Source: Acidobacteriota bacterium (lineage in GTDB: Bacteria; Acidobacteriota; Vicinamibacteria; Marinacidobacterales; Marinacidobacteraceae). Taken from it: a DNA stretch of 64,000 nucleotides. This document shows positions 25,758-62,480 of this stretch, piece after piece. The stretch is from positions 35,180 to 99,179 of the forward strand of contig JAJEIY010000001.1 in assembly GCA_022828085.1 (NCBI GenBank), in the 5' to 3' direction. Within the stretch, counting starts at the first letter, position 1. Every line of letters begins with the position of its first letter. The notes under the pieces are model-generated. The model was not told where the DNA came from, made no database searches, and was given only the letters and a program-made list of their open reading frames with translations. The position numbers were made by a program, and so were the translations under genes.

Positions 25758-25760
25758 GGG

Positions 25761-41416: not shown

Positions 41417-41438
41417 CGTGCCCTCCCCGAAGGCCGGT

Positions 41439-41466
41439 GGCGCGGTCCTCCGGAGAGGACCGCGCC
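41439..41466 (-). promoter_or_regulatory. Intercistronic perfect 12-bp stem-loop between TBDR stop and tldD start (attenuator / mRNA-processing candidate)
   Basis: The sequence is GGCGCGGTCCTC-CGGA-GAGGACCGCGCC. No U-run follows, and tldD starts about 20 nt downstream. Confidence 0.45.
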
Positions 41467-41480
41467 AAATGTGAGTCGGC

Positions 41481-44333
41481 CTAGAAGCGAATCCGGAGCG
41501 CCAGCTCGATCTGCCGGGCCTCGGACACCTGCGTCGACTGTCCGAAGCCTCCGGAACGGAGGTTGCCGTTCGGAGGGAAGTAGTTGGCGCGGTTCAGCAG
41601 GTTGAACACCTGGAAGATGGCCTCGGCGTAGGCGTTGTCGCCGAACCGGAACTCCTTCGCCGCCAGCACGTCCACGGTGGCGTAGGCGGGACACTCGACC
41701 GAGGAAACCGTCGACAGCCCGTTCGCGGTCCGGTAGGCGTTCGCCGCATTCAGATCGAGATCGCGGCAGCCGTCCCGGAGGTTGATCCCCGGTGGCCGGT
41801 CTCCGCCGATGCCGTCCCCGTTCAGGTCGCTGCCCGCCGTGACGTTGAACGGCAGGGCGCTCTGGTAGCGGACGATGCCGCTCAGGTTGACACCCCCCGG
41901 CAGCATCGCGAGGCCGCTGAGGGTGAGGCGGTGCCGCCGGTCCGCGGGCACGTGCCCGTAGTCGGAACCACGGTTGTAGTGGTCGGCGGGGAACGTCTCC
42001 GAGTCGGCCTGCACGTCAGCCAGCGTGTAGGAGCCGAGCATCTGCCAGTTGTCCGCGAGCCGCTTCGTCACTCTCGCCGACAGGGCGCGGTACTTCATCT
42101 CGCCGTCCGTCATGCCGGCCGTGACCCGGCCGATCGGGGCGTAGGGTCGTTCGCCTCCCGCCGTCAACGGGTAGTTGAAGTCGATCTGCGTGTGCTGGTT
42201 GAAACCGTCGGCGGCGATGCCGTCGAGGCTGATGCTCAGATCGTCCCCGAGCTGGATGCTGTAGCCCAGGCTGTACTGGTTGGTGTAAGGCGTCCGGTTC
42301 TCGTTGCCCTGGACGGAGTAGTTCCGCTGGGAACGCGCTACCTCGAAGGGGTCCTGCCCCTGATACGGATCGGGATAGCTGGGATTCTGGATCACCACCA
42401 GCAGGTCCTCGGGATTCCGCTCGGCGCGGGGCGCGCCGTTGGCCCGGTAACGGTTGTAGAAGACCCCCCAGGCGGCCCGCACCGACTGGCGGCCGTCGCC
42501 GGTCGGATCCCACACCAATCCCAGCCGGGGGCCGAAGTTGTCGTTGTCCCCGCGGGTGCTGTTGTCGTAGAACGGGAAGAGGGACGGATCGAGCCGGCCG
42601 GCCGGGCGCACGACCCGGTCCCGGACCAGGATCTCGGGCACCGTTTCCTCGAGCAGGTTCTCGTTCCAGACGCCCTGCTGCAGGTCATACCGCAGACCGA
42701 GGTTCAGCGTGAGCCGGGGGTTCACGATCCAGGTATCGCTGATGTAGATGGAGTGCTCCGTGTTCTCGAAATCGTCGTAGCGGGGCAGAAGCCGCTGCCG
42801 GAACCGGTCGGGGTGGGTGGACGGATCGTTCGGGTCGTACGGCGCGTCGGAGGAGAACCACCACTCTTCGGCGACGCCGACGTTGTCCGGTTCCCAGTCA
42901 ATGAACGTGAGGTCCACGCCGAGCTTCAGCTCGTGGCCCCCAACGTAGTGGGAGATGTCGTTCTTGACCTGGATGTGGAGTTCCGGCCCCAGGAACGCGG
43001 ACTGGCTCCCGGTGCGGAGACTGGGGCGGTTGATGAGGGGCCCGACATCCACGCGCTCGGCCGGGAACTCGCCGGAGGCGCTCCACTTCTGGTGTCCGGG
43101 GGGCCAGCCGATGTAGGTGGCGTGCGCCACCTGGACCCGGAAGTCGTTGAAAGTGTTGGGGCTCAGGAACCAGGTCTCGCCCAGCACCAGTGAGTGCCGT
43201 GGAGCCCCGAAGCTGAAGCCGCTGCTCGCCGCCCGGATGCCGCCGGAGCCGCGGTGAGTCAGTTCGTTGTTGTGGTGCGCGTAGCGGGCGAACAGGCGGT
43301 GATCGTCGTTGATGGCGTAATCGAGGCGCGCGAACCCCATGAAGTTCCAGTCCGGCTTCTCAAAGGTGCCCTCCTCGGAAGGAAACGCGCCTCCGGTGTT
43401 CACCGTGAAGAAGGAGGTCTCGTCGGTGTACTCGGCGGAGAGGTAGAAATGGGCCTTGTCCTCGACGATCGGGCCACCGAGCGATCCGCCGAACTGGTGG
43501 CGGGAGAAATCGGGCTTTTCGTCCTGAAACACCGTCTTCGAGTTCAGCGCCTTGGTGCGGAAGAACTCGAAGACGCTGCCGCTGACCCGGTTCGTGCCAC
43601 TTTTGGTGACCACGTTCAGGTAGCCGCCCTGCGCGAAACCGAAGTCGGCGCTGGCGTTGAACGCCTGGACCTTGAACTCGGCAATGCCTTCCTGCGGAAA
43701 GTCCTGCCGCGGCTCGCCCTGCTGCTGCCAGTTGTTGCTCACCCCGTCCACGTAGAAACCGTTCGAATAGAACGTGACGCCGGCGCCGATGTTGACGTTG
43801 TTGTAGAAAACGCCGCGGATCGCATCCTGACTGGTGGCGGGACTCAGCGTGGCCAGATCGAGCCACTTCCGTCCCTGCATCGGCAGGACCTCCACCTGTT
43901 CCTCGGTGATGATGGTGGAGAAGTCCGCCTGCCGGGACTCGATGAGTGGGGCGGATGCGGTGACGGTGACCGCCTCCTCGACTCCGGCCAGTTCCAGCGA
44001 GATGTTGAGCGTCACCTGCTGCGCCACCTGCAGCCGCAGGCCCTCGTTGGTGACGGTCTGGAACCCATCGAGGCTCGCCATCACCGCGTAGGTGCCGACC
44101 GGAAGCGAGGGCACCTGGTACAGGCCGTCCCCTCCGGAGGTCACCGTCCGCTGCAGCCCGGTTTCGGCGTTCGTGACGGTGACGGTCACTCCGGGCAACG
44201 CGTCCCCGGTGGCGTCGGTTACGCGCCCGTAGACGCCTGCTTCCTGGGCGGCCGCGGTGACGGCCACTCCGACGAGCAGCGCTGCGAACAGCACCGCCAG
44301 GGGCCTCGCCCCGATGCAGTTACCGAAATTCAT
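41481..44333 (-). CDS. TonB-dependent outer-membrane receptor with N-terminal carboxypeptidase-regulatory-like (CarbopepD_reg) domain
   Basis: A signal peptide MNFGNCIGARPLAVLFAALLVGVAVTAAAQ is followed by GRVTDATGDALPGVTVTVTNAETG, a CarbopepD_reg domain. Plug and barrel regions follow, the C-terminus ends in aromatic F, and the protein is about 950 aa. Confidence 0.88.
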   Translation of the reverse strand: MNFGNCIGARPLAVLFAALLVGVAVTAAAQEAGVYGRVTDATGDALPGVTVTVTNAETGLQRTVTSGGDGLYQVPSLPVGTYAVMASLDGFQTVTNEGLRLQVAQQVTLNISLELAGVEEAVTVTASAPLIESRQADFSTIITEEQVEVLPMQGRKWLDLATLSPATSQDAIRGVFYNNVNIGAGVTFYSNGFYVDGVSNNWQQQGEPRQDFPQEGIAEFKVQAFNASADFGFAQGGYLNVVTKSGTNRVSGSVFEFFRTKALNSKTVFQDEKPDFSRHQFGGSLGGPIVEDKAHFYLSAEYTDETSFFTVNTGGAFPSEEGTFEKPDWNFMGFARLDYAINDDHRLFARYAHHNNELTHRGSGGIRAASSGFSFGAPRHSLVLGETWFLSPNTFNDFRVQVAHATYIGWPPGHQKWSASGEFPAERVDVGPLINRPSLRTGSQSAFLGPELHIQVKNDISHYVGGHELKLGVDLTFIDWEPDNVGVAEEWWFSSDAPYDPNDPSTHPDRFRQRLLPRYDDFENTEHSIYISDTWIVNPRLTLNLGLRYDLQQGVWNENLLEETVPEILVRDRVVRPAGRLDPSLFPFYDNSTRGDNDNFGPRLGLVWDPTGDGRQSVRAAWGVFYNRYRANGAPRAERNPEDLLVVIQNPSYPDPYQGQDPFEVARSQRNYSVQGNENRTPYTNQYSLGYSIQLGDDLSISLDGIAADGFNQHTQIDFNYPLTAGGERPYAPIGRVTAGMTDGEMKYRALSARVTKRLADNWQMLGSYTLADVQADSETFPADHYNRGSDYGHVPADRRHRLTLSGLAMLPGGVNLSGIVRYQSALPFNVTAGSDLNGDGIGGDRPPGINLRDGCRDLDLNAANAYRTANGLSTVSSVECPAYATVDVLAAKEFRFGDNAYAEAIFQVFNLLNRANYFPPNGNLRSGGFGQSTQVSEARQIELALRIRF

Positions 44334-44713
44334 ACCCGTCTCCTTTCTGGGTGAACGCGCCTGTCGGGAGGCGCTACGGACAGATGCAGTCGCGCAACCG
44401 GGCAACCGGAGGAACGCGATCCGTCCATGAACTCAACGGAGAGCCCGCCCGGAGGCGGCCCGCGACGCCCGCTTGAGCCAAAGCGCGCCGTCCAGCGGAC
44501 AGGTTGCTTCGAGACATGTCGCGGTTAGCTCTCCTCGGTTGCGCGTAACAGCCGCAACCGATTTGGAAACCCCATTAACTCGCCTCGGGGGGGTGCGCCG
44601 TCAAATGCGACTCCTTCACTCCGACTTTGCGCCTCCACCACCGGGTCGGCCACCGGGGCCAGGGGGCCGCCGGCGGCGCCACCACAGTCCTCCCTGCTAA
44701 TCTCCCCAGTCCC

Positions 44714-45166
44714 ATGCAAAGACGCGATGCGCTCCGGGCGACGCTGCTCCTGATCGCCGCTCCCGCGGTCACGAGAGCCGCCCGCGACGGCCGCGAGGTC
44801 ATCGTTGCCGGCCGCGCGGTCTGCCTGAGGAACGGCGAGCCGGGACCGGTGGCGGACTGCTCCTTCGGCGAGCAGTTCGGAATCGAGACGCCGGACGGCA
44901 CGATCCACCGGCTGGATCCGACGGACCTGCGCGTCGAGATCCTCACCGACGAACGGGTGAGCCGGCATCCGCTGGAAGTTGCGCTCTGGCAGGAGGACGG
45001 GCTCGGCAAGATCATCCGCCTCTACACGATCCAGGACGGCGAGACGATCGAGCCCTACTACTTCTGCTTCACCTGCAACATCACCTCGCACCTCCCGGGA
45101 CCCTGCTGGTGCTGCCAGGAGGATTTCGAGTTCCAGGAGCGCTCCGCGCACCCGTCCACGGACTGA
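44714..45166 (+). CDS. Small secreted Cys-rich hypothetical protein (Tat-like signal)
   Basis: The signal MQRRDALRATLLLIAAPAVTRAARDG is followed by a mature region with 7 Cys, including YYFCFTCNITSHLPGPCWCCQ. No family was recognised. Confidence 0.5.
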   Translation: MQRRDALRATLLLIAAPAVTRAARDGREVIVAGRAVCLRNGEPGPVADCSFGEQFGIETPDGTIHRLDPTDLRVEILTDERVSRHPLEVALWQEDGLGKIIRLYTIQDGETIEPYYFCFTCNITSHLPGPCWCCQEDFEFQERSAHPSTD

Positions 45167-45202
45167 CCGCCGGCCCCCCTCGGGGGCAAGGGCCGCGGCC
45201 CC

Positions 45203-45631
45203 TCAGCGAACCGGATTGCGCCAGCGCAATCCGGAGAAACGCGCGAAGTCCCAGTCGTTCGAATGCAGTTCCGCCTGGTGCTCAATGGCAAGTGCCGCCA
45301 GGTGCGCGTCCATCACCAGTGAGGAACCGATTGCGGGGCCGCGCAGGAGCCCTTCCAGCACGTCGAGATGGGACGGCCCCGGCGCCAGAATACGCGCGCA
45401 GGGTTCCGCGAGCCAGCGCCGGCACTCGGCGAGCGCTTCCTCGACACTCATGGGTGTCGCGACCGCCCGCCGGCTGGAAACCACTCTGGCGAAACCCAGC
45501 ATGACCATCCAGGAGAGACCCACTGGTTCGTTCCCTGAAAGGCACTGTTCCCACCAGCTTCGGGCGGCCTCGTGTTGCGGGGAATCCTTGTTGTAGGCGT
45601 AGACCAGAAGGTTGACGTCGGGAACGACCAA
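45203..45631 (-). CDS. vapC: Type II toxin-antitoxin system VapC toxin (PIN domain)
   Basis: The 142-aa protein has PIN acidic residues (MVVPDVNLLVYA...D...E...D) and lies 4 bp downstream of vapB. Confidence 0.8.
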   Translation of the reverse strand: MVVPDVNLLVYAYNKDSPQHEAARSWWEQCLSGNEPVGLSWMVMLGFARVVSSRRAVATPMSVEEALAECRRWLAEPCARILAPGPSHLDVLEGLLRGPAIGSSLVMDAHLAALAIEHQAELHSNDWDFARFSGLRWRNPVR

Positions 45632-45635
45632 GGCT

Positions 45636-45923
45636 CTAGGAACCGCCGATATCCCGGCGAGCCTTCTCGAGGAACCGGTCCACTTCGAGTTCGTCCACCA
45701 ACTGGTTCAGCTTGAGGGGATCGACCCCGGGAGCCCACCCCAGGGGCCGGGCCTTCACTCGGAAGGGTTCCCGAGGAGCCGCTGGTTTCTCGCCAACAGC
45801 GATGCCGCGCCGGAGAACCTCGTTCACCACGCTCTTGAACGACCTGCCGCTGTGGCGGGCGGTCTCCCGAAGAACTCGTCCGAGGTCGTCGTCAATCGTC
45901 AGGGTCGTTCGCACGCTGAACAT
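45636..45923 (-). CDS. vapB: Type II antitoxin VapB (RHH/CopG-like)
   Basis: The 95-aa protein has an N-terminus MFSVRTTLTIDDDLGRVLRETAR typical of VapB antitoxins. Confidence 0.75.
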   Translation of the reverse strand: MFSVRTTLTIDDDLGRVLRETARHSGRSFKSVVNEVLRRGIAVGEKPAAPREPFRVKARPLGWAPGVDPLKLNQLVDELEVDRFLEKARRDIGGS

Positions 45924-45943
45924 CTTAGCATCACATCAACTAG

Positions 45944-45955
45944 ACATCATGATGT
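45944..45955. promoter_or_regulatory. Perfect 12-bp palindrome ACATCATGATGT 21 bp upstream of vapB (candidate VapB operator)
   Basis: The palindrome was read directly from the sequence. Type II antitoxins commonly autoregulate via palindromic operators. Confidence 0.45.
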
Positions 45956-46022
45956 GTCACAGTGGGCCGCCCCCGCTTTTCCAGAGCGAGGCCCCACCCC
46001 TTCCCCGCGCTAGGTTTCCGTC

Positions 46023-47444
46023 GTGCCGATTGTCCTGCTTGCCGCCCTGCTGTTGATGGTCCCGGCGGCTGTTCCCGCCCAGGGACGCGACCGGCCCACG
46101 GACACTGAACTGGGCTGGCTGGAGTCTTTCCTGATGACCGAGGAAGAGCGCGGCGCCGCCATCGAGGCGTTCACGCACGGCGACCGGGAGGCCTTCCGGC
46201 GTCTGTTCTGGATGCGCCGGGACCCGGACCCGTCCACTCCCCAGAACGAGACCCTCGACCTCTATCTGGCGCGGGTCCGGCTCGCCGATTCGAACTTCTC
46301 CGAGGACGGCGGGTACGGCGGGGATGACCGGTCGCGCGTCTTCGTGCTGCTCGGCATGCCGGTGCAGGCGCTCCCCCAGCCCGCCACCGAAGAGACTCCG
46401 GAAGGCCTCCTCTGGGCCTTCCCTCCCGACCCGGAGAACGGCCTTGCGGACACCCTGGAGGCGCTCTATTACCGGGACGAGGAGGGCCTGCTCTTCCTCG
46501 AGAACCGCGCCGCCGTTGACGGGAGCCTGGAAGCGATGAGGCGGCGTCTCATCGCCCGGCCGGGGATCGGCTTCGAACGCGACGAGGAGGGGCGGCTCGT
46601 GATCCCGAACCTCCCGGCGGGAGGATCGGAACGAGCCCGGCGCGTGCTCGCCGGCCTGAGCGGCGACGGTCCGCCCGGGGACGGGTTTTCCTTCCGGGTC
46701 ACCCCGGCCTACTTCCGGGTGGACGACCGCGCGACCTACGTGGCGCTGCTTTTCGAGACTCCCGCGGATGCGCTCGCCCCCGGGACGGATGGCCAGTTGG
46801 CGGCTTCGCTGTTCGCCAAGACCGCATCCGCCGAGGCGGAAGGCCCGGGAGCCGCAACCTACCGGCTCGAGACGGCGCACACCGAGATCCGGTCCGCGGA
46901 AGGCCTCGTCCGTTTCGAGGCCTCGCTGGTGCTGCCTCCGGGCCGGCACCGACTGCTGCTCGGCGTCGTGGACGAGCAGTCGGACGCCTTCGGCACCGCC
47001 CGGCTGGACATCGAGACGCCGGCCTTTCCCGAGGCCGAGCCCGGGTTCTCCTCGGTGGTCCTCTACGGGGACACCACCATGCAGGAATACAGCGGCCGCG
47101 TTCCCGGACGAGCCTTTCAATTCGGGCGCACCCACTTCGAGCCCCGGTCAACGGCGGTGTTCCGGCAGGACGAGACGCTCGGCGCGTTCTATTTCTTCTA
47201 CCCGGGGGAACGCGTGGACGACGGGGAGCTACCGGAGATCGTGGCCGAGTACACCCTGAGCCGGGAGGGACGGGACACCGGTTTCGTCCGTCCGGAGGCG
47301 CTTCCCACGAGTACCCGCCAGGCCGCTGCGAATGCGGAGATCGAATTGAGCGACTTCGCGCCCGGCCGCTACGAACTCGGAATCCGCGTCCTCTACGGCG
47401 AGCAGGTCTACGAGACGCGGAAGGCGTTCACGCTGGTCCGCTGA
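46023..47444 (+). CDS. Secreted GWxTD-domain-like protein
   Basis: A signal peptide MPIVLLAALLLMVPAAVPAQ is followed by the block FWMRRDPDPSTPQNETLDLYLARVRLADSNFSEDGGYGGDDRSRVFVLLGMP. This resembles the GWxTD family (W..RDPDP.TP.NE...Y..R......G[WY]..DR....G.P), with a degenerate GWxTD (GYGGDD). Confidence 0.45.
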   Translation: MPIVLLAALLLMVPAAVPAQGRDRPTDTELGWLESFLMTEEERGAAIEAFTHGDREAFRRLFWMRRDPDPSTPQNETLDLYLARVRLADSNFSEDGGYGGDDRSRVFVLLGMPVQALPQPATEETPEGLLWAFPPDPENGLADTLEALYYRDEEGLLFLENRAAVDGSLEAMRRRLIARPGIGFERDEEGRLVIPNLPAGGSERARRVLAGLSGDGPPGDGFSFRVTPAYFRVDDRATYVALLFETPADALAPGTDGQLAASLFAKTASAEAEGPGAATYRLETAHTEIRSAEGLVRFEASLVLPPGRHRLLLGVVDEQSDAFGTARLDIETPAFPEAEPGFSSVVLYGDTTMQEYSGRVPGRAFQFGRTHFEPRSTAVFRQDETLGAFYFFYPGERVDDGELPEIVAEYTLSREGRDTGFVRPEALPTSTRQAAANAEIELSDFAPGRYELGIRVLYGEQVYETRKAFTLVR

Positions 47445-47454
47445 GCCAGTAGGC

Positions 47455-47508
47455 GCGTTTCGCCTTCCTGCGGTCGGCGATGCCGGCCGGAGGCCGGCGC
47501 TCCAGCGT
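47455..47508 (-). repeat. Diverged member of the repeat family (subfamily GCGTTTCGC...GCCGGCCGGAGGCCGGCGCTCC)
   Basis: Hairpin GCCGGC-CGGAG-GCCGGC lies at 47482-47498 between convergent genes. The copy shares the GCGTTTCGC leader and GCGCTCC tail with the copy at 52779. Confidence 0.55.
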
Positions 47509-48000
47509 TCAGGGCCGGCACTGCCCCGTGACGACCGTGTCGTTGTCCTCCATGTAGTGGACTTCGTACGGGCATTCGATCCCGGTGATTCCGGCGAACT
47601 TCCCGGTGCCGCCGGTGAACACGAAGGCACCCTGGCCGCCGCCCCCGGCCTCGACGTCGCCCGAGTCCCGATGGGCCTCCAGAAACACCTCGTCCTCGTC
47701 GGGATCGTGGAGCGTGCAATGCGAGTCGATGTCGATCGCGGAACCCTCGACCTTGATGGCGGTGGCGCAGGTCCCGTGGAGCCGGGATTCCTCGGTGAAC
47801 GGGCTGTCCGGACCCGCGTAGGGAATGGTCAGCACGCCATGCAGCGAGCCGGCCGTAAGCGAGTGATCCCCGTGCCCGATGGTGGTGTAGTCCCGCTGCC
47901 CGACGAAGACGAAGCGGAAAACGTCGTCGGCCTGCGCGAAGGCGGACGCGGAGGCACCCGCGAGCATGGCGGCGAGCAACGACAGACGCGTCAGGAACAT
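47509..48000 (-). CDS. Secreted hypothetical protein
   Basis: The 163-aa protein has a signal peptide MFLTRLSLLAAMLAGASASAFAQ, 4 Cys and no recognised domain. Confidence 0.5.
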   Translation of the reverse strand: MFLTRLSLLAAMLAGASASAFAQADDVFRFVFVGQRDYTTIGHGDHSLTAGSLHGVLTIPYAGPDSPFTEESRLHGTCATAIKVEGSAIDIDSHCTLHDPDEDEVFLEAHRDSGDVEAGGGGQGAFVFTGGTGKFAGITGIECPYEVHYMEDNDTVVTGQCRP

Positions 48001-48035
48001 GAGTACCTCCTTTGACGTCCCCGGGAATTCCGGGT

Positions 48036-48875
48036 TCAGGAACCGAGATGTTCCCGGAAGAAGCGGACGGTCATCGGCCAGGCCTGCGAGGACGCCGTCA
48101 GATTCCGTCCCTCGCGGCCGTCCTGGGCGCGCAGGAACCCGTGCCCCGCGCCGTCGAAGATCTCCACCTGGAAGGACTTGCCGAGTTCCTCCATCCGGTT
48201 CTGCGCCGGCGGAATCGTCTCGTTCACCCGCGCGTCGTCCTCGCCGTAGAGGCCGAGCACGGGGGCCTCGACGGCGGCGAGCGCCTCGCTGTCAGGTGAG
48301 GTCCCGTAGTAGACGATCGCCGCGCCGAGCTCCGGATCGTGGGTGGCGAAGGTGAAGCTCGTGCGCCCGCCCCAGCAGAAGCCGACCACCCCGTAGGAAT
48401 CGCGGGCGGCAGGAAGCGCGGTGGCCCAGTCCGCCACCGCCTTCAGCCGGGTGTGCACCTCATCGCGGTCGAGCGCCCGGATCAGCGCCCGCGCCCCGTC
48501 GCCATCCACCGAATCGGTCCGCCCCCCGTCCGGCCCCTTGCCGGTCAGCAGGTCGGGAGCGACCGCGATGAAGCCCTGCGCCGCCAGCTCGTCGGCCACC
48601 CCCCGGATCCAGTCGGTGAGCCCGAAGATCTCGTGAATGACCACGACCACCGGCGCGGTATCCGACCGCTCCGGATAGACGATCCAGGACTCGACGGCGT
48701 CGCCGCCCGGCGCCGGCACCGAGACCCACTCCCCGTGCCGCGGGGAGGTGTTCAGCCGGTCGCGGGCGGTGTCGGCGGAGCCGGGGAGCTGCTGAGCGTA
48801 AGCCGACCCGGCGGTCAGAAAAACGGCGCCGACGAGCGGCGCGGCAAAACGCGGAAGGGAGCGGAACGGGCGCAT
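48036..48875 (-). CDS. Dienelactone hydrolase family protein, secreted
   Basis: A signal MRPFRSLPRFAAPLVGAVFLTAGSAYAQ precedes a DLH fold with nucleophile GFCWGG and a HGF His motif, giving about 279 aa. The upstream track extension is junk. Confidence 0.8.
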   Translation of the reverse strand: MRPFRSLPRFAAPLVGAVFLTAGSAYAQQLPGSADTARDRLNTSPRHGEWVSVPAPGGDAVESWIVYPERSDTAPVVVVIHEIFGLTDWIRGVADELAAQGFIAVAPDLLTGKGPDGGRTDSVDGDGARALIRALDRDEVHTRLKAVADWATALPAARDSYGVVGFCWGGRTSFTFATHDPELGAAIVYYGTSPDSEALAAVEAPVLGLYGEDDARVNETIPPAQNRMEELGKSFQVEIFDGAGHGFLRAQDGREGRNLTASSQAWPMTVRFFREHLGS

Positions 48876-48921
48876 TCGCCGAGTATAGTCCTGGCCAACC
48901 GAGCCGATTCCAACCGAAAGA

Positions 48922-49656
48922 ATGAGCAGCGAGACACCCGGTAACCGCCCGGGAAGCATGCACGGCGGCGCCCCGCCGCGCGGCGGGTGGTGGGCGGCGC
49001 CGGCCGCCCTGGGCCTCCTGGTGTCCATCTGGGCGGTCTTCTTCTACGCGCCCACGGAACTCACGATGGGTGACCTGCAGCGGCTCTTCTACTTCCACAT
49101 TTCCTCGTGGTGGCTCGCCTTCGCCGCCTTCCTGCTGGTCGCGGGGGCCAGCGTCGCGTGGCTCCGCACCCGGGACCCGCGCTACGACACGGCGGCTCTC
49201 GCTGCGGCCGAGATCGGGACGCTCTTCGCCACCACCGGACTCGCGATGGGGATCATCTGGGCAAAGCCCGCGTGGGGCATCTGGTGGACGTGGGACGCCC
49301 GGCTGACCACCGCCTTCGTCCTCTGGCTGATCTACGTCGGCTACCTGATGCTTCGCGGCTATGTGGACGACCCGACCCGGCGGGCGAACCTGGCCGCCGT
49401 GCTCGGCATCCTCGGCGGCGCCGACGTCCCCATCGTCTATTTCTCGATCCGCTGGTGGCGCACCCAGCATCCGGCGCCGGTGATCATGGGCGGGCCGGAT
49501 TCCGGGTTGCATCCCGACATGTGGATCACGCTGCTCATTTGCCTCGCCGCGTTCACCTTCCTCTTCATCTGGCTCTTCCAGTGGCGAATGGAGCTCGGGC
49601 GGGAAGCGCGCGCCCTGGAAGCGCTTCGGCAGCAGCGGCTCGCGGAAGCGCCATGA
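48922..49656 (+). CDS. ccmC: Heme exporter protein CcmC (cytochrome c maturation, system I)
   Basis: The WWD domain motif WGIWWTWDARLT is present in a six-TM protein of 244 aa. Confidence 0.85.
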   Translation: MSSETPGNRPGSMHGGAPPRGGWWAAPAALGLLVSIWAVFFYAPTELTMGDLQRLFYFHISSWWLAFAAFLLVAGASVAWLRTRDPRYDTAALAAAEIGTLFATTGLAMGIIWAKPAWGIWWTWDARLTTAFVLWLIYVGYLMLRGYVDDPTRRANLAAVLGILGGADVPIVYFSIRWWRTQHPAPVIMGGPDSGLHPDMWITLLICLAAFTFLFIWLFQWRMELGREARALEALRQQRLAEAP

Positions 49657-49796
49657 ACGACTGGCTTTCCGCCGGCTACACCGCCTTCTTCGTGCTGCTC
49701 GGGGCGTACGTGGTCCGCTTGGGACTCCTCGAACGCACTCTCCGCCGTGAACGGGCGCGGCTGGCAGAACACGAAGCCCGATCGGAAGACCCGTGA
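49650..49796 (+). CDS. ccmD: Heme exporter protein CcmD (small single-TM protein)
   Basis: The 48-aa protein MNDWLSAGYTAFFVLLGAYVVRLGLLERTLRRERARLAEHEARSEDP overlaps the ccmC stop as ATGA. Its size and position fit CcmD. Confidence 0.5.
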   Translation, partial: AMNDWLSAGYTAFFVLLGAYVVRLGLLERTLRRERARLAEHEARSEDP

Positions 49797-50518
49797 GACG
49801 GCTCGACGGCGTTGCGGCGCTGATCACCGGCGCCTCCTCGGGGATCGGGCGCGGCCTCGCCGGGGTCTTCCTCCGGGAAGGAGCGCGGGTCTTCCTCACG
49901 GCACGCGGTGAGGACCGCCTCCGGGAGACCGCCGGGGAACTCGAAGCGGCGCACCCGGGGCGGATCGGCCACGCCGCCTCGGACGTCGGCGATCCGGAAT
50001 CGGCCGGGACGATGGTTCTGGCCGCGCTCGCCCGCTTTCCCGACCTTTCGGTCCTCGTCAACAACGCGTCGATCCTGGGGGTGCGGGCGCCCATCATCGA
50101 GCAGGATCCCAAGGTCTGGGAGGACACTTTGCGAATCAATACCGCGAGCCTCCTCTACGTGACGAAGCCGCTCCTCCCGGCCTTCCTCGAACGGGAAACC
50201 GCTTCCATCATCAATGTCAGCTCGACGGTCGGCCGGATCGGCAAGCCCAACTGGGGCCCGTACGCGGTGTCCAAGTTCGGCCTCGAGGGGTTCACCCAGA
50301 CGCTCGCCGCGGAGCTCGAGGACACCGGCGTCCGGGTGAACAGCGTCAATCCGGGAGCCACCCGCACCCCGATGCGGGCCGCCGCCTATCCGGCGGAGGA
50401 TCCCCTCACCCTCCCGACACCGGAGGACATCGCCGAGGTCTTCGTCTACCTCGCGTCTCGGGAATCGGCCGGGATCACCGGCCAGGCCCTGAACGCCCGC
50501 GACTACTTCCGGTCGTAA
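49793..50518 (+). CDS. SDR family short-chain dehydrogenase/reductase
   Basis: The motifs TGASSGIG (NAD(P) binding) and YAVSK (catalytic YxxxK) are present. A GTG start overlaps the ccmD stop as GTGA. Confidence 0.85.
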   Translation: MRRLDGVAALITGASSGIGRGLAGVFLREGARVFLTARGEDRLRETAGELEAAHPGRIGHAASDVGDPESAGTMVLAALARFPDLSVLVNNASILGVRAPIIEQDPKVWEDTLRINTASLLYVTKPLLPAFLERETASIINVSSTVGRIGKPNWGPYAVSKFGLEGFTQTLAAELEDTGVRVNSVNPGATRTPMRAAAYPAEDPLTLPTPEDIAEVFVYLASRESAGITGQALNARDYFRS

Positions 50519-50528
50519 TCCCAGCCAG

Positions 50529-51830
50529 ATGAGCGTCGGCGAGCGCTTCGGGACCCGCTTCGGGACCGCGATGACGCTCATCGGGGTCGCCGTGGGTCTC
50601 GCGAACGTCTGGCGGTTCCCCTACATGGCGGGGCAATACGGGGGTGGGGCGTTCGTCGCCATCTACGTCGCCTTCGTCCTGCTGCTCGGGGCCCCGGCGC
50701 TGATCGCCGAGTGGAGCCTGGGAAGGCTGACCCGCGCGGGTCCCGGCGGCGCCTTCACCAGCATCGGGATGCCCGGCGGCCGCTTCATCGGCGGCCTGCT
50801 CTTCCTGACCGTGTTCATGGCCTGCTCCTACTACACGGTCGTGGTGGCCCAGGTCCTCTTCTACGCCGCGCTCGGTGGTGTGGTCGTCGAGCCCGAGGCG
50901 TTCTACGCCCGGAACTTCGGCGGCATGACGGGGCTGAACCTCAGCCTCACCGTGCTCGTGTTCGGGGCGATGGGCCTGGTCGCCGCCTTCGGGGTGCAGC
51001 GGGGCGTCGAGCGCCTGTCACGGATCGCCATGCCGCTCGTCGCGATCGGCCTCGTCGTCGTCGCCGTCCGGTCGGTCACGCTGCCGGGCGCCTCCGAGGG
51101 CATCCGCTACCTCCTCTGGCCCGATCTCGGAAGCGTGAGCGCCGAGACGTTCCTGGCCGCGCTCGGGCAGGCGTTCTTCAGCCTCTCGCTCGGCGGCACC
51201 TTCTTCCTCGCCTACGGCAGCTACCTGCCCTCGAACGCCAACCTGCGCCGACTGTCGGGCACGACGATCTTCGGCGACTCGGGCGCCGCCATCCTGGGCG
51301 GGCTCGCGGTGCTGCCGGCGGCCTTCGCCCTCGGAGTGGAGCCGGCCTCGGGTCCGCCGCTCGTCTTCTTCACCCTGCCCCGCGTCTTCGCCGCCATGCC
51401 CGGCGGCGAGTTCTTCGGGCCGGTCTTCTTCCTCGCCCTCTTCCTGGCCGCCTTCCTTTCGGCCCTCGCCGCGCTCGAAGTCATCGTCAACTCGGCGGTT
51501 CCCTGGACCGGCTGGAGCCGGCGGACGGTGGTCGGCGCAGCGGTCGCCCTTCAGATCCCCCTGGCGCTCCCTTCGATGGTCAGCTCCGACTACCTGGGCT
51601 GGAGCGACCTGATCTGGGGCTCGACCATGCAGCCCATCGGCTCGGCGCTCACCCTGATCGGCCTCGGGTTCTTCGTCTCCCGGGGCCGGGCGCTCGCCGA
51701 GGCGAGCCGGGGCTCGGCGCAGCCGCTCGGCGGCCTCTGGCTCTTCTGGATCCGCTGGGTCATCCCCGCGGCCATCGTGGTGGTGCTGTTCTGGGGCTGG
51801 AGCGGGACGCTGCGGGAGCTCTTCTCGTGA
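50529..51830 (+). CDS. Sodium-dependent transporter, NSS/SNF family
   Basis: The NSS signature GLANVWRFPY is present in a polytopic protein of 433 aa. Confidence 0.85.
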   Translation: MSVGERFGTRFGTAMTLIGVAVGLANVWRFPYMAGQYGGGAFVAIYVAFVLLLGAPALIAEWSLGRLTRAGPGGAFTSIGMPGGRFIGGLLFLTVFMACSYYTVVVAQVLFYAALGGVVVEPEAFYARNFGGMTGLNLSLTVLVFGAMGLVAAFGVQRGVERLSRIAMPLVAIGLVVVAVRSVTLPGASEGIRYLLWPDLGSVSAETFLAALGQAFFSLSLGGTFFLAYGSYLPSNANLRRLSGTTIFGDSGAAILGGLAVLPAAFALGVEPASGPPLVFFTLPRVFAAMPGGEFFGPVFFLALFLAAFLSALAALEVIVNSAVPWTGWSRRTVVGAAVALQIPLALPSMVSSDYLGWSDLIWGSTMQPIGSALTLIGLGFFVSRGRALAEASRGSAQPLGGLWLFWIRWVIPAAIVVVLFWGWSGTLRELFS

Positions 51831-52750
51831 GCGGGGAAGGAGCGCCGCTCCGCGTCCGGCACGGGGCGCTCCACTTCTTCGTCCGGGAAGCGCTGAAGCG
51901 CGTTCGCCTGGCGCCGGAACTGGCGTCGCAGACGGCGGACGCAATGGTGGCGGCCAACCTCGCCGGCGAGGACGCGGACGGGGTGGCCTGGCTGCCCGAC
52001 CTGGCCGGCAAGCTCTCCACCCGGCACGTCAACACCGCGCCGGAAATGAAGCTGGTGGCCTCCTCGGGCGGGACGGCGGTCCTCGACGGCGACAACGGAC
52101 CGGGACCCGCCGTCGCCCATCGGGCAATGACCGAGGCCATCGGCGGAGCGAACCGGCACGGCGTCGGCAGCACCGCGGTGCGCCGCGGGAACCGTCTGGG
52201 CTCGGCGGGAAACGCCGCAGCCCTGGCCCTGCCCCACCAGATGGCGGGCATCGCGATCGCCGGCGATCCGCAGCATCCGGAAGCCGGCGCCCCTCCCGCC
52301 GCGGCCCAGCCGGTGGCGCTCGGCATCGCGGTGCCGACCGCGGAAACCGCCGCGCCGCTCGTCCTGAATCTCCGCTTCCCCGACGGCGGCGACCGGGATC
52401 TGGCGCTCGCGCTGGCGCTCGAATTCCTCGTCAGTCTCGGGGGCGCCGCGCTCCCCGCGGAATTCACCGCCGAACCCCGGCCCGAACCCGTGCACGGCGG
52501 GACCGGACAGTTGTTCCTCGCCTTCCGGGTCCGGGCCTTCGCTCCCTGGGCCGGCTTCCGCAACCGGATGGTGGAACGGCTCGCCCAACTGCGGCGGGCC
52601 CGGATCGACTATCCGGGGCAGGAAGCCGCCGCCGTCGAGGAGGAACGCCGCACCCGGGGAATCCTCCTCGACCTGAAGACAACGGACTCCCTGCGCCAGC
52701 TCGCCTACCAGCTCGGCATGAACGAGATCTGGGACCGCCTGGGGAAGTAG
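51827..52750 (+). CDS. Ldh_2 family (malate/L-lactate/sulfolactate dehydrogenase-like) oxidoreductase, tentative
   Basis: A GTG start overlaps the NSS stop as GTGA, giving 307 aa. The region AANLAGEDADGVAWLPDLAGKL resembles the Ldh_2 N-terminal block, but the canonical SHG is missing. Confidence 0.45.
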   Translation: MSGEGAPLRVRHGALHFFVREALKRVRLAPELASQTADAMVAANLAGEDADGVAWLPDLAGKLSTRHVNTAPEMKLVASSGGTAVLDGDNGPGPAVAHRAMTEAIGGANRHGVGSTAVRRGNRLGSAGNAAALALPHQMAGIAIAGDPQHPEAGAPPAAAQPVALGIAVPTAETAAPLVLNLRFPDGGDRDLALALALEFLVSLGGAALPAEFTAEPRPEPVHGGTGQLFLAFRVRAFAPWAGFRNRMVERLAQLRRARIDYPGQEAAAVEEERRTRGILLDLKTTDSLRQLAYQLGMNEIWDRLGK

Positions 52751-56583: not shown

Positions 56584-57888
56584 ATGCGGCGCAGGCGGTT
56601 TCTGAGTTCGGTGGGCGAAGCCGGCGGCGCCGCGCTCGTCACCACCCTGTTCGGCCCGGAAACGATCCGGAACGTCGAGGCCGCGGCGCAGCGGACCGCG
56701 GGAACAAGCCCGGAAGACCTCGCGCGCGACGAGAACTACTGGAGCGAGATCCAGCAGGCGTTCAGCGTCACGCGTTCGATCATCAACCTGAACAACGGTG
56801 GGGTCTGCCCCTCACCCCGCATGGTCACCGAGGCGTTCGTCCGCTACATCTGGGAATCGGAGGAGGCCCCCGTCTACACGATGTGGCAGATCCTCCAGCC
56901 CCGGAAGGAAAACGTCCGCCAGCGGCTCGCGGTGCTGTTCGGATGCGACCCCGAGGAGGTCGCGCTCGTCCGCAACACCTCGGAAGCCATGGAGATCCTG
57001 CTGCTGGGCATGGATCTCCAGTCCGGCGACGAGATCCTCACCACCACCCAGGACTACGGTCGGATGCTCACCACCATCCGCCAGCGGACGCGCCGCGAGG
57101 GCATCGATCTCAAGTTCATCCAGATCCCGACCCCGGCCGAGACCGACGAGGAGGTCGTGGAGGGGTTCCGCGGCGCCATCACCGACAAGACCCGGATCAT
57201 CCTGATGTCCCACCAGATCAACCTCACCGGGCAGATCCTGCCGGTGAAGGCGGTCTGCGACCTGGCCCGCGAACGCGGCATCGAGGTCATGGTGGACGGG
57301 GCGCACTCGTTCGCCCAGTTCGACTTCAAGCTCGAAGACATCGGCTGCGACTACTTCGGCACCAGCCTTCACAAGTGGCTCCTCGCCCCCAAGGGCACCG
57401 GGATGCTCTACGTGAAGAAGGACAAGATCCCGAAGATCTGGCCCATGATGCCCGCCCCCGAGCGCATGGACGAGGACATCCGCAAGTACGAGGAGATCGG
57501 CACCCATCCCGCCGCCAACTTCGTGGCGGTCGGAGAAGCGATCACCTTCCACAACACGGTGGGCGCGAAGAACAAGGAGGCCCGGCTCCGCTATCTGAAG
57601 GACACCTGGGCCGATCGCCTGTCAGCACTCCCCAATACCGAACTCCACACTTCGCGCAACCCCAGGTTGAGCTGCGCCATCGGCAACATCAACCTGACGA
57701 CCGTCGAACCGCCCCGGCTCCGCGACTACTTCTGGGAGAAGCACCACATCATCGTCACTCCCATCATGCACGAGGAGTTCCAGGGACTCCGGATCACTCC
57801 GAACCTCTACACGACCATGGCCGAGCTCGACTACTTCTGCAACGTGTACGAGGACATCGCGCGGAACGGCCTTCCCAAGTCGGCCTGA
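56584..57888 (+). CDS. Class V aminotransferase / cysteine-desulfurase-like PLP enzyme with twin-arginine signal
   Basis: MRRRRFLSSVGEAGGAALVTTLFGP is a Tat signal. The PLP-lysine motif is SLHKWLLAPKGTG, and the protein is 434 aa. A strong RBS AAAGGAG lies 8 nt upstream. Confidence 0.8.
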   Translation: MRRRRFLSSVGEAGGAALVTTLFGPETIRNVEAAAQRTAGTSPEDLARDENYWSEIQQAFSVTRSIINLNNGGVCPSPRMVTEAFVRYIWESEEAPVYTMWQILQPRKENVRQRLAVLFGCDPEEVALVRNTSEAMEILLLGMDLQSGDEILTTTQDYGRMLTTIRQRTRREGIDLKFIQIPTPAETDEEVVEGFRGAITDKTRIILMSHQINLTGQILPVKAVCDLARERGIEVMVDGAHSFAQFDFKLEDIGCDYFGTSLHKWLLAPKGTGMLYVKKDKIPKIWPMMPAPERMDEDIRKYEEIGTHPAANFVAVGEAITFHNTVGAKNKEARLRYLKDTWADRLSALPNTELHTSRNPRLSCAIGNINLTTVEPPRLRDYFWEKHHIIVTPIMHEEFQGLRITPNLYTTMAELDYFCNVYEDIARNGLPKSA

Positions 57889-57943
57889 TTCTCATGAACG
57901 TCGGTCCCGGTCCGGCGCGCGGCACGCCGGTGCGGCTGTTCTC

Positions 57944-59446
57944 ATGACCCACACCGCCGTGCATCCCGGCGCCGCTCCCGCGTTCCGCCAGTACGACCAC
58001 AACCCGACGTTCTACGACGAGATGTTCGAAGGCGACGGGTCTCCGCGCCAGCACTGCTCCGATTTCTTCGAGACCATCCGGGAGACGCCGCCGGATGACC
58101 TGCGGCAGATTCAGGAGCGGGTCACGCGGTCGTTCCTTCACGAGGGGATCACCTTCACCGTCTACGGCGACGAACAGACCATCGAGCGCGTCTTCCCGAT
58201 CGACTGCCTCCCCCGGATCGTGCGCGGAGACGAATGGGACGACGTCGCCCGCGGGCTGGAACAGCGGCTCCGGGCGCTCAACCTGTTCCTCCACGACATC
58301 TACCACCGGGGCCACATCATCCGCGACGGGGTGATCCCCGCCGAACTGGTCTACGGCAACAAGCACTACCGGATCGAGATGCGGGGCGTCGAGGTCCCCC
58401 ACGGCGCCTACGTCTCGGTCTGCGGCACCGACCTCGTGCGCACCCACGACGGGTTCGCGGTGCTCGAGGACAACCTCCGGGTGCCGTCCGGCGTCAGCTA
58501 CATGCTCGCCTGCCGGGATGCGATCAAGCGCAGCATGCCGCGCCTGTTCCGGCGTTCCCGGGTCCGGGACGTGGAGCAGTACAGCCGGCTGCTGCTCGAG
58601 ACGCTCCGGTCGCTCGCGCCGCCGCAGGTGAGCGATCCGAGCATCGTCCTGCTCACCCCCGGCGTCTACAACTCGGCCTACTACGAGCACGCCTTCCTCG
58701 CCCGCCAGATGGGCATCGAACTCGTCGAGGGACGCGACCTGCTCGTCCACAACCGGCGGGTGTACATGCGGACGACCGCCGGGCTCCGGCAGGTGGACGT
58801 GATCTACCGGCGCATCGACGACGACTTCATCGACCCGGTCACGTTCCGCGAGGACTCGGTGCTCGGAGTGCCCGGGCTCTTCCACGCGTACCGGGCGGGC
58901 CGGGTGGTGATCGCGAACGCCCCCGGGACCGGCGTGGCCGACGACAAGGCCGTCTATGCCTACGTGCCGCGCATCATCAAGTACTACCTGGGCGAGGAAT
59001 CGCTCATCAAGCCCATTCCAACCACTCTTTGCCGGGAGCGGGAGGGCCTTGCCTACACCCTCGCCAATCTGGACAAGCTGGTCGTGAAGATGGTGGGTGA
59101 GTCCGGCGGCTACGGGATGCTGGTCGGTCCTCACGCCTCGGCAACCGAACAAAAGGAGTTCGCGGCGGCGCTCCGGGCGAACCCGGACGACTACATCTCC
59201 CAGCCGACGCTCGCCCTGTCCCGGGCCCCCTGCCTTATCGGGGCCCATATCGAGCCGCGGCACGTGGACCTGCGGCCGTTCATCCTGCAGTCGGAACGGA
59301 CCGAGATCGTGCCCGGCGGCCTCTGCCGGGTCGCGCTCAAGAAGGGCAGCCTGGTGGTGAATTCCAGCCAGGGCGGCGGCTCCAAGGACGCCTGGATCGT
59401 GGATGTTCCGGAGGCGGCCGGGCCTGCTGCCGCCGCAAGCGCCTGA
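57944..59446 (+). CDS. Circularly permuted ATP-grasp type 2 protein (DUF404/DUF407)
   Basis: The 500-aa protein has conserved blocks (VIANAPGTGVADDKAVYAYVP, SGGYGMLVGPHA) characteristic of the cp-ATP-grasp family. It is the first gene of the cpATP-grasp / alpha-E / transglutaminase triad. Confidence 0.85.
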   Translation: MTHTAVHPGAAPAFRQYDHNPTFYDEMFEGDGSPRQHCSDFFETIRETPPDDLRQIQERVTRSFLHEGITFTVYGDEQTIERVFPIDCLPRIVRGDEWDDVARGLEQRLRALNLFLHDIYHRGHIIRDGVIPAELVYGNKHYRIEMRGVEVPHGAYVSVCGTDLVRTHDGFAVLEDNLRVPSGVSYMLACRDAIKRSMPRLFRRSRVRDVEQYSRLLLETLRSLAPPQVSDPSIVLLTPGVYNSAYYEHAFLARQMGIELVEGRDLLVHNRRVYMRTTAGLRQVDVIYRRIDDDFIDPVTFREDSVLGVPGLFHAYRAGRVVIANAPGTGVADDKAVYAYVPRIIKYYLGEESLIKPIPTTLCREREGLAYTLANLDKLVVKMVGESGGYGMLVGPHASATEQKEFAAALRANPDDYISQPTLALSRAPCLIGAHIEPRHVDLRPFILQSERTEIVPGGLCRVALKKGSLVVNSSQGGGSKDAWIVDVPEAAGPAAAASA

Positions 59447-59448
59447 TC

Positions 59449-60423: not shown

Positions 60424-60443
60424 GGGCCCGCGCGACCAGCCAC

Positions 60444-61364: not shown

Positions 61365-61440
61365 CGGACCGCGGAGGAACCCGCCTTTGTGTGTTGCGAT
61401 TCGCCCGGAAAACGCCGAGTATTCCTCTGTCGCGCGGCGC

Positions 61441-61474
61441 GTCCGCCGGGTTTCTGACCGGTTTCCCGGCGGAC
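61441..61474. promoter_or_regulatory. Perfect 10-bp inverted repeat GTCCGCCGGG-N14-CCCGGCGGAC upstream of the rsbW-like gene
   Basis: The repeat lies 40 bp upstream of the 61512 start, has no U-run, and a TTGACG hexamer lies just downstream. Confidence 0.35.
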
Positions 61475-61511
61475 GTGGGTTCCACCACAGGCTGCTAAAG
61501 TTGACGCCCCG

Positions 61512-62323: not shown

Positions 62324-62480
62324 CACCGCGCGTCAGTCCCGGGCGGGCTGACCGGCGGGTGCCAAGACCGCGCTTCGCCGGGTCCCGGGACCAAGATGAC
62401 ACGGGAGCGTGACACGCCTGACAACGGCCGGGAACGCCCGCCAGTGGCTGTGAAGATGCCGTCCCGCGGGTCGGCCAAGA

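What the first reader, a model, noticed from the sequence alone, without database searches (positions are those of the whole stretch)
48922..52750. Orphan ccmC-ccmD pair translationally chained to an SDR, an NSS transporter and an Ldh_2-like dehydrogenase
The ccmC (WWD motif WGIWWTWD) and ccmD genes appear without ccmA/B upstream or ccmE/F/H downstream. Instead the chain of overlaps is ccmC-ATGA-ccmD-GTGA-SDR, then a 10-bp gap, then NSS-GTGA-Ldh_2-like. The CcmC/D heme-handling proteins are thus embedded in an operon with a sodium symporter and two oxidoreductases. This suggests either a split ccm system or a non-canonical use of CcmCD. The heme A/O genes ctaA-ctaB lie 23 kb away.
Basis: partly seen in the sequence, partly recalled or inferred. 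Interest (0 to 1): 0.5.

Follow-up and report, generated by a model that had tools for sequence, protein, structure and literature searches.

The report
Displaced tail of a split ccm cluster
The ccmC-ccmD pair is the normal, intact last part of a cytochrome c maturation gene cluster that rearrangements have moved away from its partner genes in this group of sponge- and coral-associated Acidobacteria; it now sits in front of unrelated genes, which is an ordinary result.

Summary
ccmC (48922-49656), a 47-codon ccmD (49653-49796), a YciK-like SDR, an MhsT-like Na+ symporter and an Ldh_2 dehydrogenase are chained by ATGA, GTGA, a 10-bp gap and GTGA. No other ccm gene lies in the 64 kb.

The unusual interpretation is not supported. 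In 70 of 77 assessable related loci, ccmC directly follows ccmB at the end of a ccmE-F-H-x-x-A-B-C-D cluster. In a related Vicinamibacteria chromosome, four inserted genes separate ccmB from ccmC by 5.4 kb.

In a sister sponge MAG, 89-90% identical and collinear with the window, one contig carries ccmE-F-H-x-x-A-B. It carries ccmCD-SDR-NSS-Ldh_2 49.5 kb downstream on the same strand. That distal cluster has no ccmC or ccmD, so this pair is the only copy.

The heme-binding residues are intact and dN/dS is 0.12-0.39.

The SDR is dispensable to the arrangement. A coral MAG has ccmD-ATGA-NSS directly, and another relative has a toxin-antitoxin pair in the SDR's place.

Verdict: a split but canonical (Cys-type CcmE) System I. 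The passenger genes are neighbours by descent. Interest is low.

The parts
48036..48875 (-). Dienelactone hydrolase family gene, divergent from ccmC. It is one of the genes inserted between ccmB and ccmC in this clade.
   Evidence: PF01738 DLH, E 1.4e-41. The start at 48875 gives 279 aa, the length called in all relatives. It sits between the GWxTD gene and ccmC in L004, L005 and L001.
48876..48921 (.). 46-bp divergent intergenic region with a conserved GAGTATAGT element (TATAGT at 48884-48889). This is a candidate -10 box for ccmC, or on the other strand (TATACT) for a near-leaderless DLH transcript. It is inferred, not shown.
   Evidence: The CGAGTATA core is invariant in six relatives whose intergenic sequence is otherwise diverged. 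The consensus promoter scan found nothing.
48922..49656 (+). ccmC, the WWD-domain heme-handling membrane protein of System I (244 aa).
   Evidence: PF01578, 101 bits. TIGR01191 ccmC is the best NCBIfam hit at 141 bits, below the cut-off of 186. E. coli CcmC (7F02_C), E 2.2e-23, with aligned FYFH / WGIWWTWDARLT / WWRTQH. dN/dS 0.12-0.19.
49653..49796 (+). ccmD, a small single-helix partner of CcmC of the CcmD_alt type (47 aa).
   Evidence: ATGA overlap with ccmC. A 40-67 aa ORF of the same pattern follows ccmC in about 65 of 78 further loci, most often with the same 4-bp overlap. 28 of 35 of these hit TIGR04391 and 6 hit TIGR03141. The custom HMM gives E 2.6e-8. dN/dS 0.34-0.39. On its own it scores only E 0.18.
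49793..50518 (+). YciK-like short-chain dehydrogenase/reductase. It is a lineage-specific passenger between ccmD and NSS.
   Evidence: PF00106, E 1.5e-50. NF006509 YciK, 213 bits, below the cut-off of 269. PDB YciK, E 4e-49. Absent at this position in L004 and L005.
50529..51830 (+). NSS-family Na+-dependent transporter, MhsT-like. Probably an amino-acid symporter.
   Evidence: PF00209, E 8.6e-42. NF037979, 95.8 bits, above its cut-off. MhsT 4US3, E 1.2e-51 over residues 5-421.
51827..52750 (+). Ldh_2-family (malate/L-lactate/sulfolactate-type) dehydrogenase, paired with the NSS gene by a 4-bp overlap throughout the clade.
   Evidence: PF02615, 124.5 bits. Closest solved relative is L-sulfolactate dehydrogenase 2X06, E 4.8e-25, N-terminal half only. 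The NSS-Ldh_2 overlap is conserved in L001 and L004. A convergent FadB-like gene starts at 52826, which ends the unit.

Best explanation
This is the displaced 3' end of a canonical System I cytochrome c maturation cluster, the variant with a Cys-type CcmE. It belongs to a marine-invertebrate-associated Vicinamibacteria (Acidobacteriota) lineage.

The ancestral order is ccmE-F-H-x100-x387-A-B-C-D, with ccmCD last. In this clade, genes were inserted between ccmB and ccmC: DUF5916, a 165-aa ORF, a GWxTD protein and a reverse-strand dienelactone hydrolase. Further rearrangement then moved the two halves tens of kb apart.

Because the inserted hydrolase points the other way, ccmCD lost the cluster's promoter. 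It must now be transcribed from the short DLH-ccmC spacer. Transcription probably reads through into whatever lies downstream:
- NSS-Ldh_2, the ancestral downstream neighbours.
- In the window's sub-lineage, an SDR inserted between ccmD and NSS.

Shown: gene identities, junctions, the series of arrangements in relatives, and the presence of the other ccm genes in sister genomes.

Inferred:
- CcmCD here does what E. coli CcmCD does. It takes up heme, positions it in the WWD domain and loads it on CcmE. CcmAB encoded elsewhere releases holo-CcmE to CcmFH.
- The five genes are co-transcribed.
- The source genome itself carries the rest of the system.
For: (1) In 70 of 77 assessable loci from many phyla, ccmB ends directly upstream of ccmC on the same strand. 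In 57, ccmF is also upstream.

(2) Chromosome OY729431.1 (CcmC 81% identical) reads ccmF-H-x-x-A-B-DUF5916-x165-GWxTD-DLH(-)-ccmC-ccmD. The x165, GWxTD and DLH genes are the same ones that precede ccmC in the window.

(3) Contig VYGC01000149.1 of GCA_009842065.1 has ccmE...ccmB at 7212-13019 and ccmC at 62506-63240, on the same strand. Its ccmC region is 89-90% identical to the window and collinear with window 35264-52750.

(4) NCBI accession blocks place CcmC and CcmF in the same MAGs: MXZ61155/MXZ61196, MYF15782/MYF15741, MXW37706/MXW37408, MDE2710596/MDE2710247.

(5) The distal clusters end ccmB-DUF5916 with no ccmC.

(6) The two His ligands and the WWD motif align with E. coli CcmC.

(7) Purifying selection acts on all five genes.

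(8) The SDR is replaced by a SocA/Panacea pair in L004 and is absent in L005, where ccmD overlaps NSS by ATGA.

(9) CcmCD is a self-sufficient heme-loading module that forms holo-CcmE without CcmAB (PMC12077264, read). Separate transcription from ccmAB is therefore mechanistically unproblematic.
Against: - The source genome itself was not found in any collection. The presence of ccmABEFH in it is inferred from sisters at about 90% nucleotide identity.
- CcmC scores below NCBI's curated ccmC cut-off (141 vs 186 bits). ccmD alone is not significant against public models.
- The ccmCD-NSS-Ldh_2 adjacency has survived from 100% down to 72% CcmC identity while the flanks were reshuffled. That could hint at selection for co-expression.
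- No promoter was detected by consensus scan, and no transcript data exist.
Confidence: 0.85

Rival explanations
1. Non-canonical use. CcmCD has been recruited into a functional unit with the SDR, the Na+ symporter and the Ldh_2 dehydrogenase. For example, heme handling could be tied to uptake and oxidation of an imported substrate. The translational chaining would reflect that function.
For: There are four-base start/stop overlaps at three of four junctions. ccmD is followed by NSS-Ldh_2 in every member of this clade examined, including L005 at 72% CcmC identity.
Against: - NSS, Ldh_2 or the SDR follow ccmC in essentially none of 78 loci outside the clade: 1 weak Ldh_2 hit and 1 SDR hit within 3 kb.
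- The SDR position is occupied by a toxin-antitoxin pair with 65-90 nt spacers in L004 and is empty in L005.
- None of the three passengers has a heme-related family assignment.
- From general knowledge, 4-bp overlaps are the commonest junction between adjacent same-strand genes in compact high-GC genomes.
Confidence: 0.05
2. True orphan. The source genome, unlike its sisters, has lost ccmABEFH, and this ccmCD is a remnant on its way to decay.
For: No other ccm gene and no CXXCH protein lies in 64 kb. The source genome could not be retrieved.
Against: - dN/dS is 0.12-0.19 for ccmC and 0.34-0.39 for ccmD against three relatives.
- All catalytic residues are intact.
- MAGs in the window's own 90% CcmC cluster carry CcmF, for example MDE2710596 and MDE2710247.
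Confidence: 0.05
3. Degenerate duplicate of a complete ccmABCDEFGH operon elsewhere.
For: None found.
Against: - The distal clusters of four related genomes run ccmB directly into DUF5916 with no ccmC or ccmD.
- This copy is intact and under purifying selection.
Confidence: 0.02

Closest known systems
E. coli CcmC-CcmD of the CcmABCD/E heme-loading complex (PDB 7F02-7F04, 8CE1; PMC9616876, PMC10457321, PMC12077264)
   Same: The length is the same (244 vs 245 aa). The WWD motif WGxWWxWDARLT and both flanking His residues align. A small single-helix partner is encoded immediately downstream. CcmCD is known to load CcmE without CcmAB.
   Different: - The phmmer match to E. coli CcmC is only moderate (E 2.2e-23, 86 bits, query residues 24-201). 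Percent identity was not computed.
- It falls below the TIGR01191 cut-off.
- The partner is of the CcmD_alt type (TIGR04391), not the proteobacterial CcmD.
- It is encoded tens of kb from ccmAB.
Variant System I with Cys-type CcmE (CXXXY), described for archaea and Desulfovibrio-type bacteria (own knowledge: Allen et al. 2006)
   Same: All related clusters examined encode a CcmE with AKCASKY in place of the His-containing motif. The order is ccmE-F-H-...-A-B-C-D.
   Different: These clusters also contain a CcmH (PF03918) and two conserved unknown ORFs. As I recall, the variant was described as lacking CcmH. This was not checked in the literature here.
Split ccm loci in other bacteria, e.g. Shewanella oneidensis ccmABCDE / ccmFGH (PMC3769277)
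   Same: System I genes are divided into separately transcribed units by intervening genes.
   Different: The break here falls between ccmB and ccmC, not between ccmE and ccmF. The distance is about 50 kb rather than two genes. Four other loci in my sample also have ccmC without ccmAB within 9-10 kb: L016, L064, L071 and L082.
MhsT (NSS), YciK (SDR) and L-sulfolactate dehydrogenase ComC (Ldh_2) as nearest characterised relatives of the passenger genes
   Same: Family-level similarity: E 1.2e-51, 4e-49 and 4.8e-25.
   Different: None reaches an equivalog cut-off. The substrates are unknown. Ldh_2 aligns well only in its N-terminal half.

Membership tests
CcmC (System I heme-handling WWD protein) | Tryptophan-rich WWD motif in a periplasmic loop | tested here: met
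   WGIWWTWDARLTT aligns with WGTWWVWDARLTS of E. coli CcmC.
CcmC (System I heme-handling WWD protein) | Two conserved histidines flanking the WWD domain (E. coli His60 and His184; residue numbers from own knowledge) | tested here: met
   FYFHISS aligns with IYLHVPA, and WWRTQHP aligns with WWNTLHQ.
CcmC (System I heme-handling WWD protein) | Score above curated family thresholds | tested here: inconclusive
   Pfam PF01578 gives 101 bits against a cut-off of 29.9, so it is met. NCBIfam TIGR01191 gives 141.1 bits against a cut-off of 186, so it is not met, but it is far ahead of CcsB at 48 bits.
CcmC (System I heme-handling WWD protein) | Genomic association with ccmA/B and ccmE/F/H | tested here: inconclusive
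   Not met inside the 64-kb window. Met in 70 of 77 homologous loci and, at 5.4 kb and 49.5 kb, in the closest relatives.
CcmC (System I heme-handling WWD protein) | Binds heme and loads it on CcmE | not testable with these tools
   This needs heme staining or holo-CcmE formation assays.
CcmD (CcmD_alt_fam, TIGR04391) | Small single-helix protein encoded immediately after ccmC | tested here: met
   47 aa with an ATGA overlap and a hydrophobic stretch at residues 4-24.
CcmD (CcmD_alt_fam, TIGR04391) | Sequence match to the family model | tested here: inconclusive
   Alone it scores 11.8 bits, E 0.18, against a cut-off of 24. 28 of 35 positional homologues match, with best E 6.6e-16. An HMM of 32 out-of-clade homologues scores it 27.8 bits, E 2.6e-8.
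CcmD (CcmD_alt_fam, TIGR04391) | Is translated | not testable with these tools
   The only indirect support is dN/dS of 0.34-0.39 and conservation of the reading frame.
YciK-family SDR | Equivalog-level score | tested here: not met
   NF006509 gives 213 bits against a cut-off of 269. It is a member of the SDR superfamily (PF00106, 171.8 bits).
NSS / SNF transporters | Pfam and NCBIfam family thresholds | tested here: met
   PF00209 gives 143.9 bits against 27. NF037979 gives 95.8 bits against 50.
Ldh_2 dehydrogenases | Pfam threshold and full-length match | tested here: inconclusive
   PF02615 gives 124.5 bits against 38.8. The best stretch covers only profile positions 5-170 of 333. No equivalog is reached.
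Single five-gene operon | Co-transcription of ccmC through Ldh_2 | not testable with these tools
   The genes share a strand, with overlaps or a 10-bp gap. There is no convincing internal terminator. No RNA data are available.

The most novel reading that the evidence does not exclude
The ccmCD-NSS-Ldh_2 unit has persisted in this host-associated Vicinamibacteria clade while everything around it was reshuffled. It might be kept together by selection, so that heme loading of CcmE is co-regulated with uptake and oxidation of a host-derived amino or sulfonated acid. That would make CcmCD expression independent of the rest of the Ccm machinery.
Probability: 0.05. Interest if true: 0.4.

Novelty: new member of a known kind. 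Interest (0 to 1): 0.12.

Why it matters
It matters little beyond annotation.

- It shows that an apparently orphan ccmCD in a contig-sized window should be read as the detached end of a ccmE-F-H-A-B-C-D cluster.
- NCBI names for the close relatives vary. Some sister proteins are called CcsA, but this protein is a CcmC.
- The split fits the biochemical finding that CcmCD works as a module separable from CcmAB.
- It gives a small natural series of intermediate arrangements: contiguous, then 5.4 kb apart, then about 50 kb apart.

Tried and rejected
- An exact look-up of the window's CcmC found nothing.
It returned relatives of at most 81% identity and not the source genome. The rest of the ccm system therefore had to be located in sister genomes.
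- The ABC ATPase fragment at window 140-3 (-) resembled the CcmA N-terminus at 46-50% over about 45 residues. I rejected it as ccmA. In the collinear relative L102 that gene is followed by an ABC-2 permease, and no ccm gene lies within 10 kb beyond the window's left edge.
- The MacB-type permease seen near ccmE in L087 is not syntenic with the window's MacB gene.
- Public models alone do not recognise the 47-aa ORF. This was resolved with positional homologues.
- The sigma-70 scan found no promoter. The terminator-like hits are weak stems inside coding sequence.
- Two literature searches for scattered ccm genes mostly returned plant mitochondrial papers.
- No CXXCH protein was found in the window, so the client cytochromes could not be named.
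Full report
**Observation**

The window is about 70% G+C. On the + strand the five ORFs lie exactly as described:
- ccmC, 48922-49656.
- A 47-codon ORF, 49653-49796, sharing ATGA with the ccmC stop.
- An SDR, 49793-50518, sharing GTGA.
- A 10-bp gap.
- An NSS transporter, 50529-51830.
- An Ldh_2 protein, 51827-52750, sharing GTGA.

All five have the third-position G+C excess of real genes in this genome: 0.75 for the small ORF and 0.88-0.95 for the others. The Pfam assignments are strong.

Upstream lies a reverse-strand dienelactone hydrolase. Orthologues put its start at 48875, which leaves a 46-bp divergent spacer. Downstream lies a convergent FadB-like gene.

No other ccm gene is in the window. 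This rests on tblastn with CcmA, B, E, F and H of close relatives. It also rests on Pfam scans of almost all other genes. No called gene in the window has a CXXCH motif. ctaB and ctaA are at 24891-26720 on the minus strand.

**Identity of ccmC**

- The protein matches E. coli CcmC of the solved CcmABCD complex (7F02_C, E 2.2e-23). The match to the System II CcsBA is much weaker (E 5.5e-4).
- The alignment pairs FYFH with the E. coli first histidine ligand. It pairs WGIWWTWDARLT with the WWD motif and WWRTQH with the second histidine.
- TIGR01191 (ccmC) is the best NCBIfam hit at 141 bits. That is below the curated 186, and CcsB scores 48.

It is therefore a divergent but clear CcmC, not a CcsA as some sister proteins are named at NCBI.

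**Identity of ccmD**

Alone, the 47-aa ORF is invisible to public models. TIGR04391 gives E 0.18, and Pfam gives nothing relevant.

I extracted the ORF that starts at the ccmC stop in all fetched loci. About 65 of 78 further genomes have a 40-67 aa ORF there. It shares a YLxAAY...W...F.Y...RR...L..E pattern, and most often the same 4-bp overlap.
- 28 of 35 non-redundant members hit TIGR04391 CcmD_alt_fam, with best E 6.6e-16.
- 6 hit the classical TIGR03141.
- An HMM built only from the 32 members outside the window's clade scores the window ORF 27.8 bits (E 2.6e-8). The next of 351 small ORFs in the window scores 3.7 bits.

The ORF is a CcmD-family gene.

**Lineage**

- The nearest proteins come from sponge and coral metagenome-assembled genomes labelled Acidobacteria or Vicinamibacteria.
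- Sister contigs are 89-92% identical in nucleotides to the window. They are collinear with it apart from a few insertions.

**What the arrangement is**

I fetched 78 further loci with a CcmC homologue, spanning Acidobacteriota and several other phyla.
- In 70 of the 77 with enough upstream sequence, ccmB ends just before ccmC on the same strand.
- In 57 of them, ccmF is also upstream.
- The common order is ccmE-ccmF-ccmH-x100-x387-ccmA-ccmB-ccmC-ccmD.

ccmCD is thus the last pair of the ancestral cluster. Whatever follows it is simply the next gene along.

The Vicinamibacteria chromosome OY729431.1 (CcmC 81% identical) shows an intermediate state. Its order is ccmF-H-x-x-A-B, then DUF5916, a 165-aa ORF, a GWxTD protein and the reverse-strand DLH, then ccmC-ccmD. 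The 165-aa ORF, the GWxTD protein and the DLH are the same genes that precede ccmC in the window.

In the sister sponge MAG GCA_009842065.1, a single 73.9-kb contig holds both parts on the same strand, 49.5 kb apart:
- ccmE-F-H-x-x-A-B-DUF5916-DUF5916 at 7.2-17.4 kb.
- DLH(-)/ccmC-ccmD-SDR-NSS-Ldh_2, with ccmC at 62.5 kb.

NCBI protein accession blocks independently place CcmC and CcmF in the same MAGs in at least seven assemblies.

The distal clusters in four relatives run from ccmB straight into DUF5916 without a ccmC. The pair studied here is therefore the only copy, not a duplicate.

dN/dS against three relatives is 0.12-0.19 for ccmC and 0.34-0.39 for ccmD.

**The passenger genes**

- The SDR is YciK-like.
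- The transporter is closest to the amino-acid symporter MhsT.
- The Ldh_2 protein is closest, in its N-terminal half, to L-sulfolactate dehydrogenase.

NSS and Ldh_2 follow ccmCD throughout this clade, but the SDR does not. OY729431.1 has a SocA/Panacea pair with ordinary spacers in its place. The coral MAG L005 has ccmD overlapping NSS directly by ATGA.

Outside the clade, none of the three genes is associated with ccmC. There was one weak Ldh_2 hit and one SDR hit within 3 kb among 78 loci.

The chain is best read in three steps. NSS-Ldh_2 are the ancestral downstream neighbours of the ccm cluster. An SDR was later inserted in the window's sub-lineage. Tight packing with 4-bp overlaps is common in such genomes (general knowledge).

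**Mechanism**

From published work, CcmCD accepts heme, positions it in the WWD domain and attaches it to CcmE without CcmAB. ATP hydrolysis by CcmAB then releases holo-CcmE towards CcmFH (PMC12077264, read; PMC9616876 and PMC10457321 listed).

A ccmCD unit transcribed apart from ccmAB is therefore mechanistically unproblematic.

Because the inserted DLH gene is on the opposite strand, ccmCD must have its own promoter in the 46-bp spacer. A GAGTATAGT element there is invariant among otherwise diverged relatives. Its role is inferred only, and the consensus scan found no promoter.

Co-transcription with the SDR, NSS and Ldh_2 is likely from the geometry but is untested.

**Comparison and novelty**

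This is an ordinary CcmC/CcmD of the System I variant with a Cys-type CcmE. All related clusters read AKCASKY at the CcmE heme-binding motif.

Split ccm loci are documented, for example in Shewanella (PMC3769277). Four other loci in my own sample also lack ccmAB near ccmC.

The only new elements are the particular break point between ccmB and ccmC and the lineage. I rate it a new member of a known kind, with low interest.

**Limits**

- The source genome itself was not retrievable. The presence of the rest of the system in it is inferred from sisters at about 90% nucleotide identity.
- In one collinear relative, the 10 kb beyond the window's left edge holds no ccm gene. The distal cluster is therefore further away or on the other side.

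Noticed in passing
L007-L088 (e.g. L088:7212-7667; L085:9309-9752): Nearly every related cluster encodes a CcmE with AKCASKY, a Cys in place of the heme-binding His. This is the 'variant System I' type, yet a CcmH (PF03918) is also present in the same clusters.
   Followed up: partly
L004:1708-3173, with homologues in most of L007-L084: Two conserved ORFs of about 100 and about 387 aa lie between ccmH and ccmA in most acidobacterial-type ccm clusters. They have no Pfam match. They may be uncharacterised accessory Ccm components, for example CcmI or CcmG substitutes.
   Followed up: no
L004:4578-6764; L085:15483-17663; L087:15362-17551; L088:12992-17387: One or two DUF5916 genes follow ccmB in the marine Vicinamibacteria clusters, overlapping the end of ccmB. 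They occupy the place where ccmC sits in other lineages.
   Followed up: no
window 45203-45923 (-): A PIN-domain (VapC-like) gene and a 95-aa upstream partner form a toxin-antitoxin-like pair. The sister contigs lack it: there is a blastn gap between window 45170 and 46004. This points to a recent insertion.
   Followed up: partly
window 38397-41480: A PmbA/TldD metallopeptidase pair is present here and in L001. It is absent at the same place in L092, L093 and L095, so this is an indel polymorphism among sister lineages.
   Followed up: no
window 50529-51830: Against L001 and L093, the NSS gene has dS 0.19 and dN/dS 0.03, with 98% protein identity. Its four neighbours have dS 0.45-0.62. This suggests recent recombination or unusually strong constraint or codon bias (GC3 0.95).
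   Followed up: no
window 48879-48889: The CGAGTATA core of the CGAGTATAGT element, next to the DLH start codon, is invariant in six relatives despite a diverged spacer. It reads as a -10-like box on both strands. On the minus strand it lies only 6 nt from the DLH ATG, so the DLH mRNA may be leaderless.
   Followed up: partly
L081:1137-1853; L084:4905-5612: Two Dehalococcoidia loci also have an SDR (32-33% identical to the window's) about 200 bp downstream of ccmC-ccmD. This is probably coincidence.
   Followed up: no
L016, L064, L071, L082: Four unrelated loci have ccmC with no ccmA, B, F or H within 9-10 kb upstream. The ccmB|ccmC break has therefore arisen more than once.
   Followed up: no
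window 10646-12298, 18993-21314, 29097-30604, 60424-62598: My GC3-based gene filter called no ORF in these stretches of 1.5-2.3 kb. They were not examined further.
   Followed up: no
window 57698-60423: A circularly permuted ATP-grasp gene is followed by an Alpha-E domain gene. This is a conserved pair of unknown function, also present in the sister contigs.
   Followed up: no
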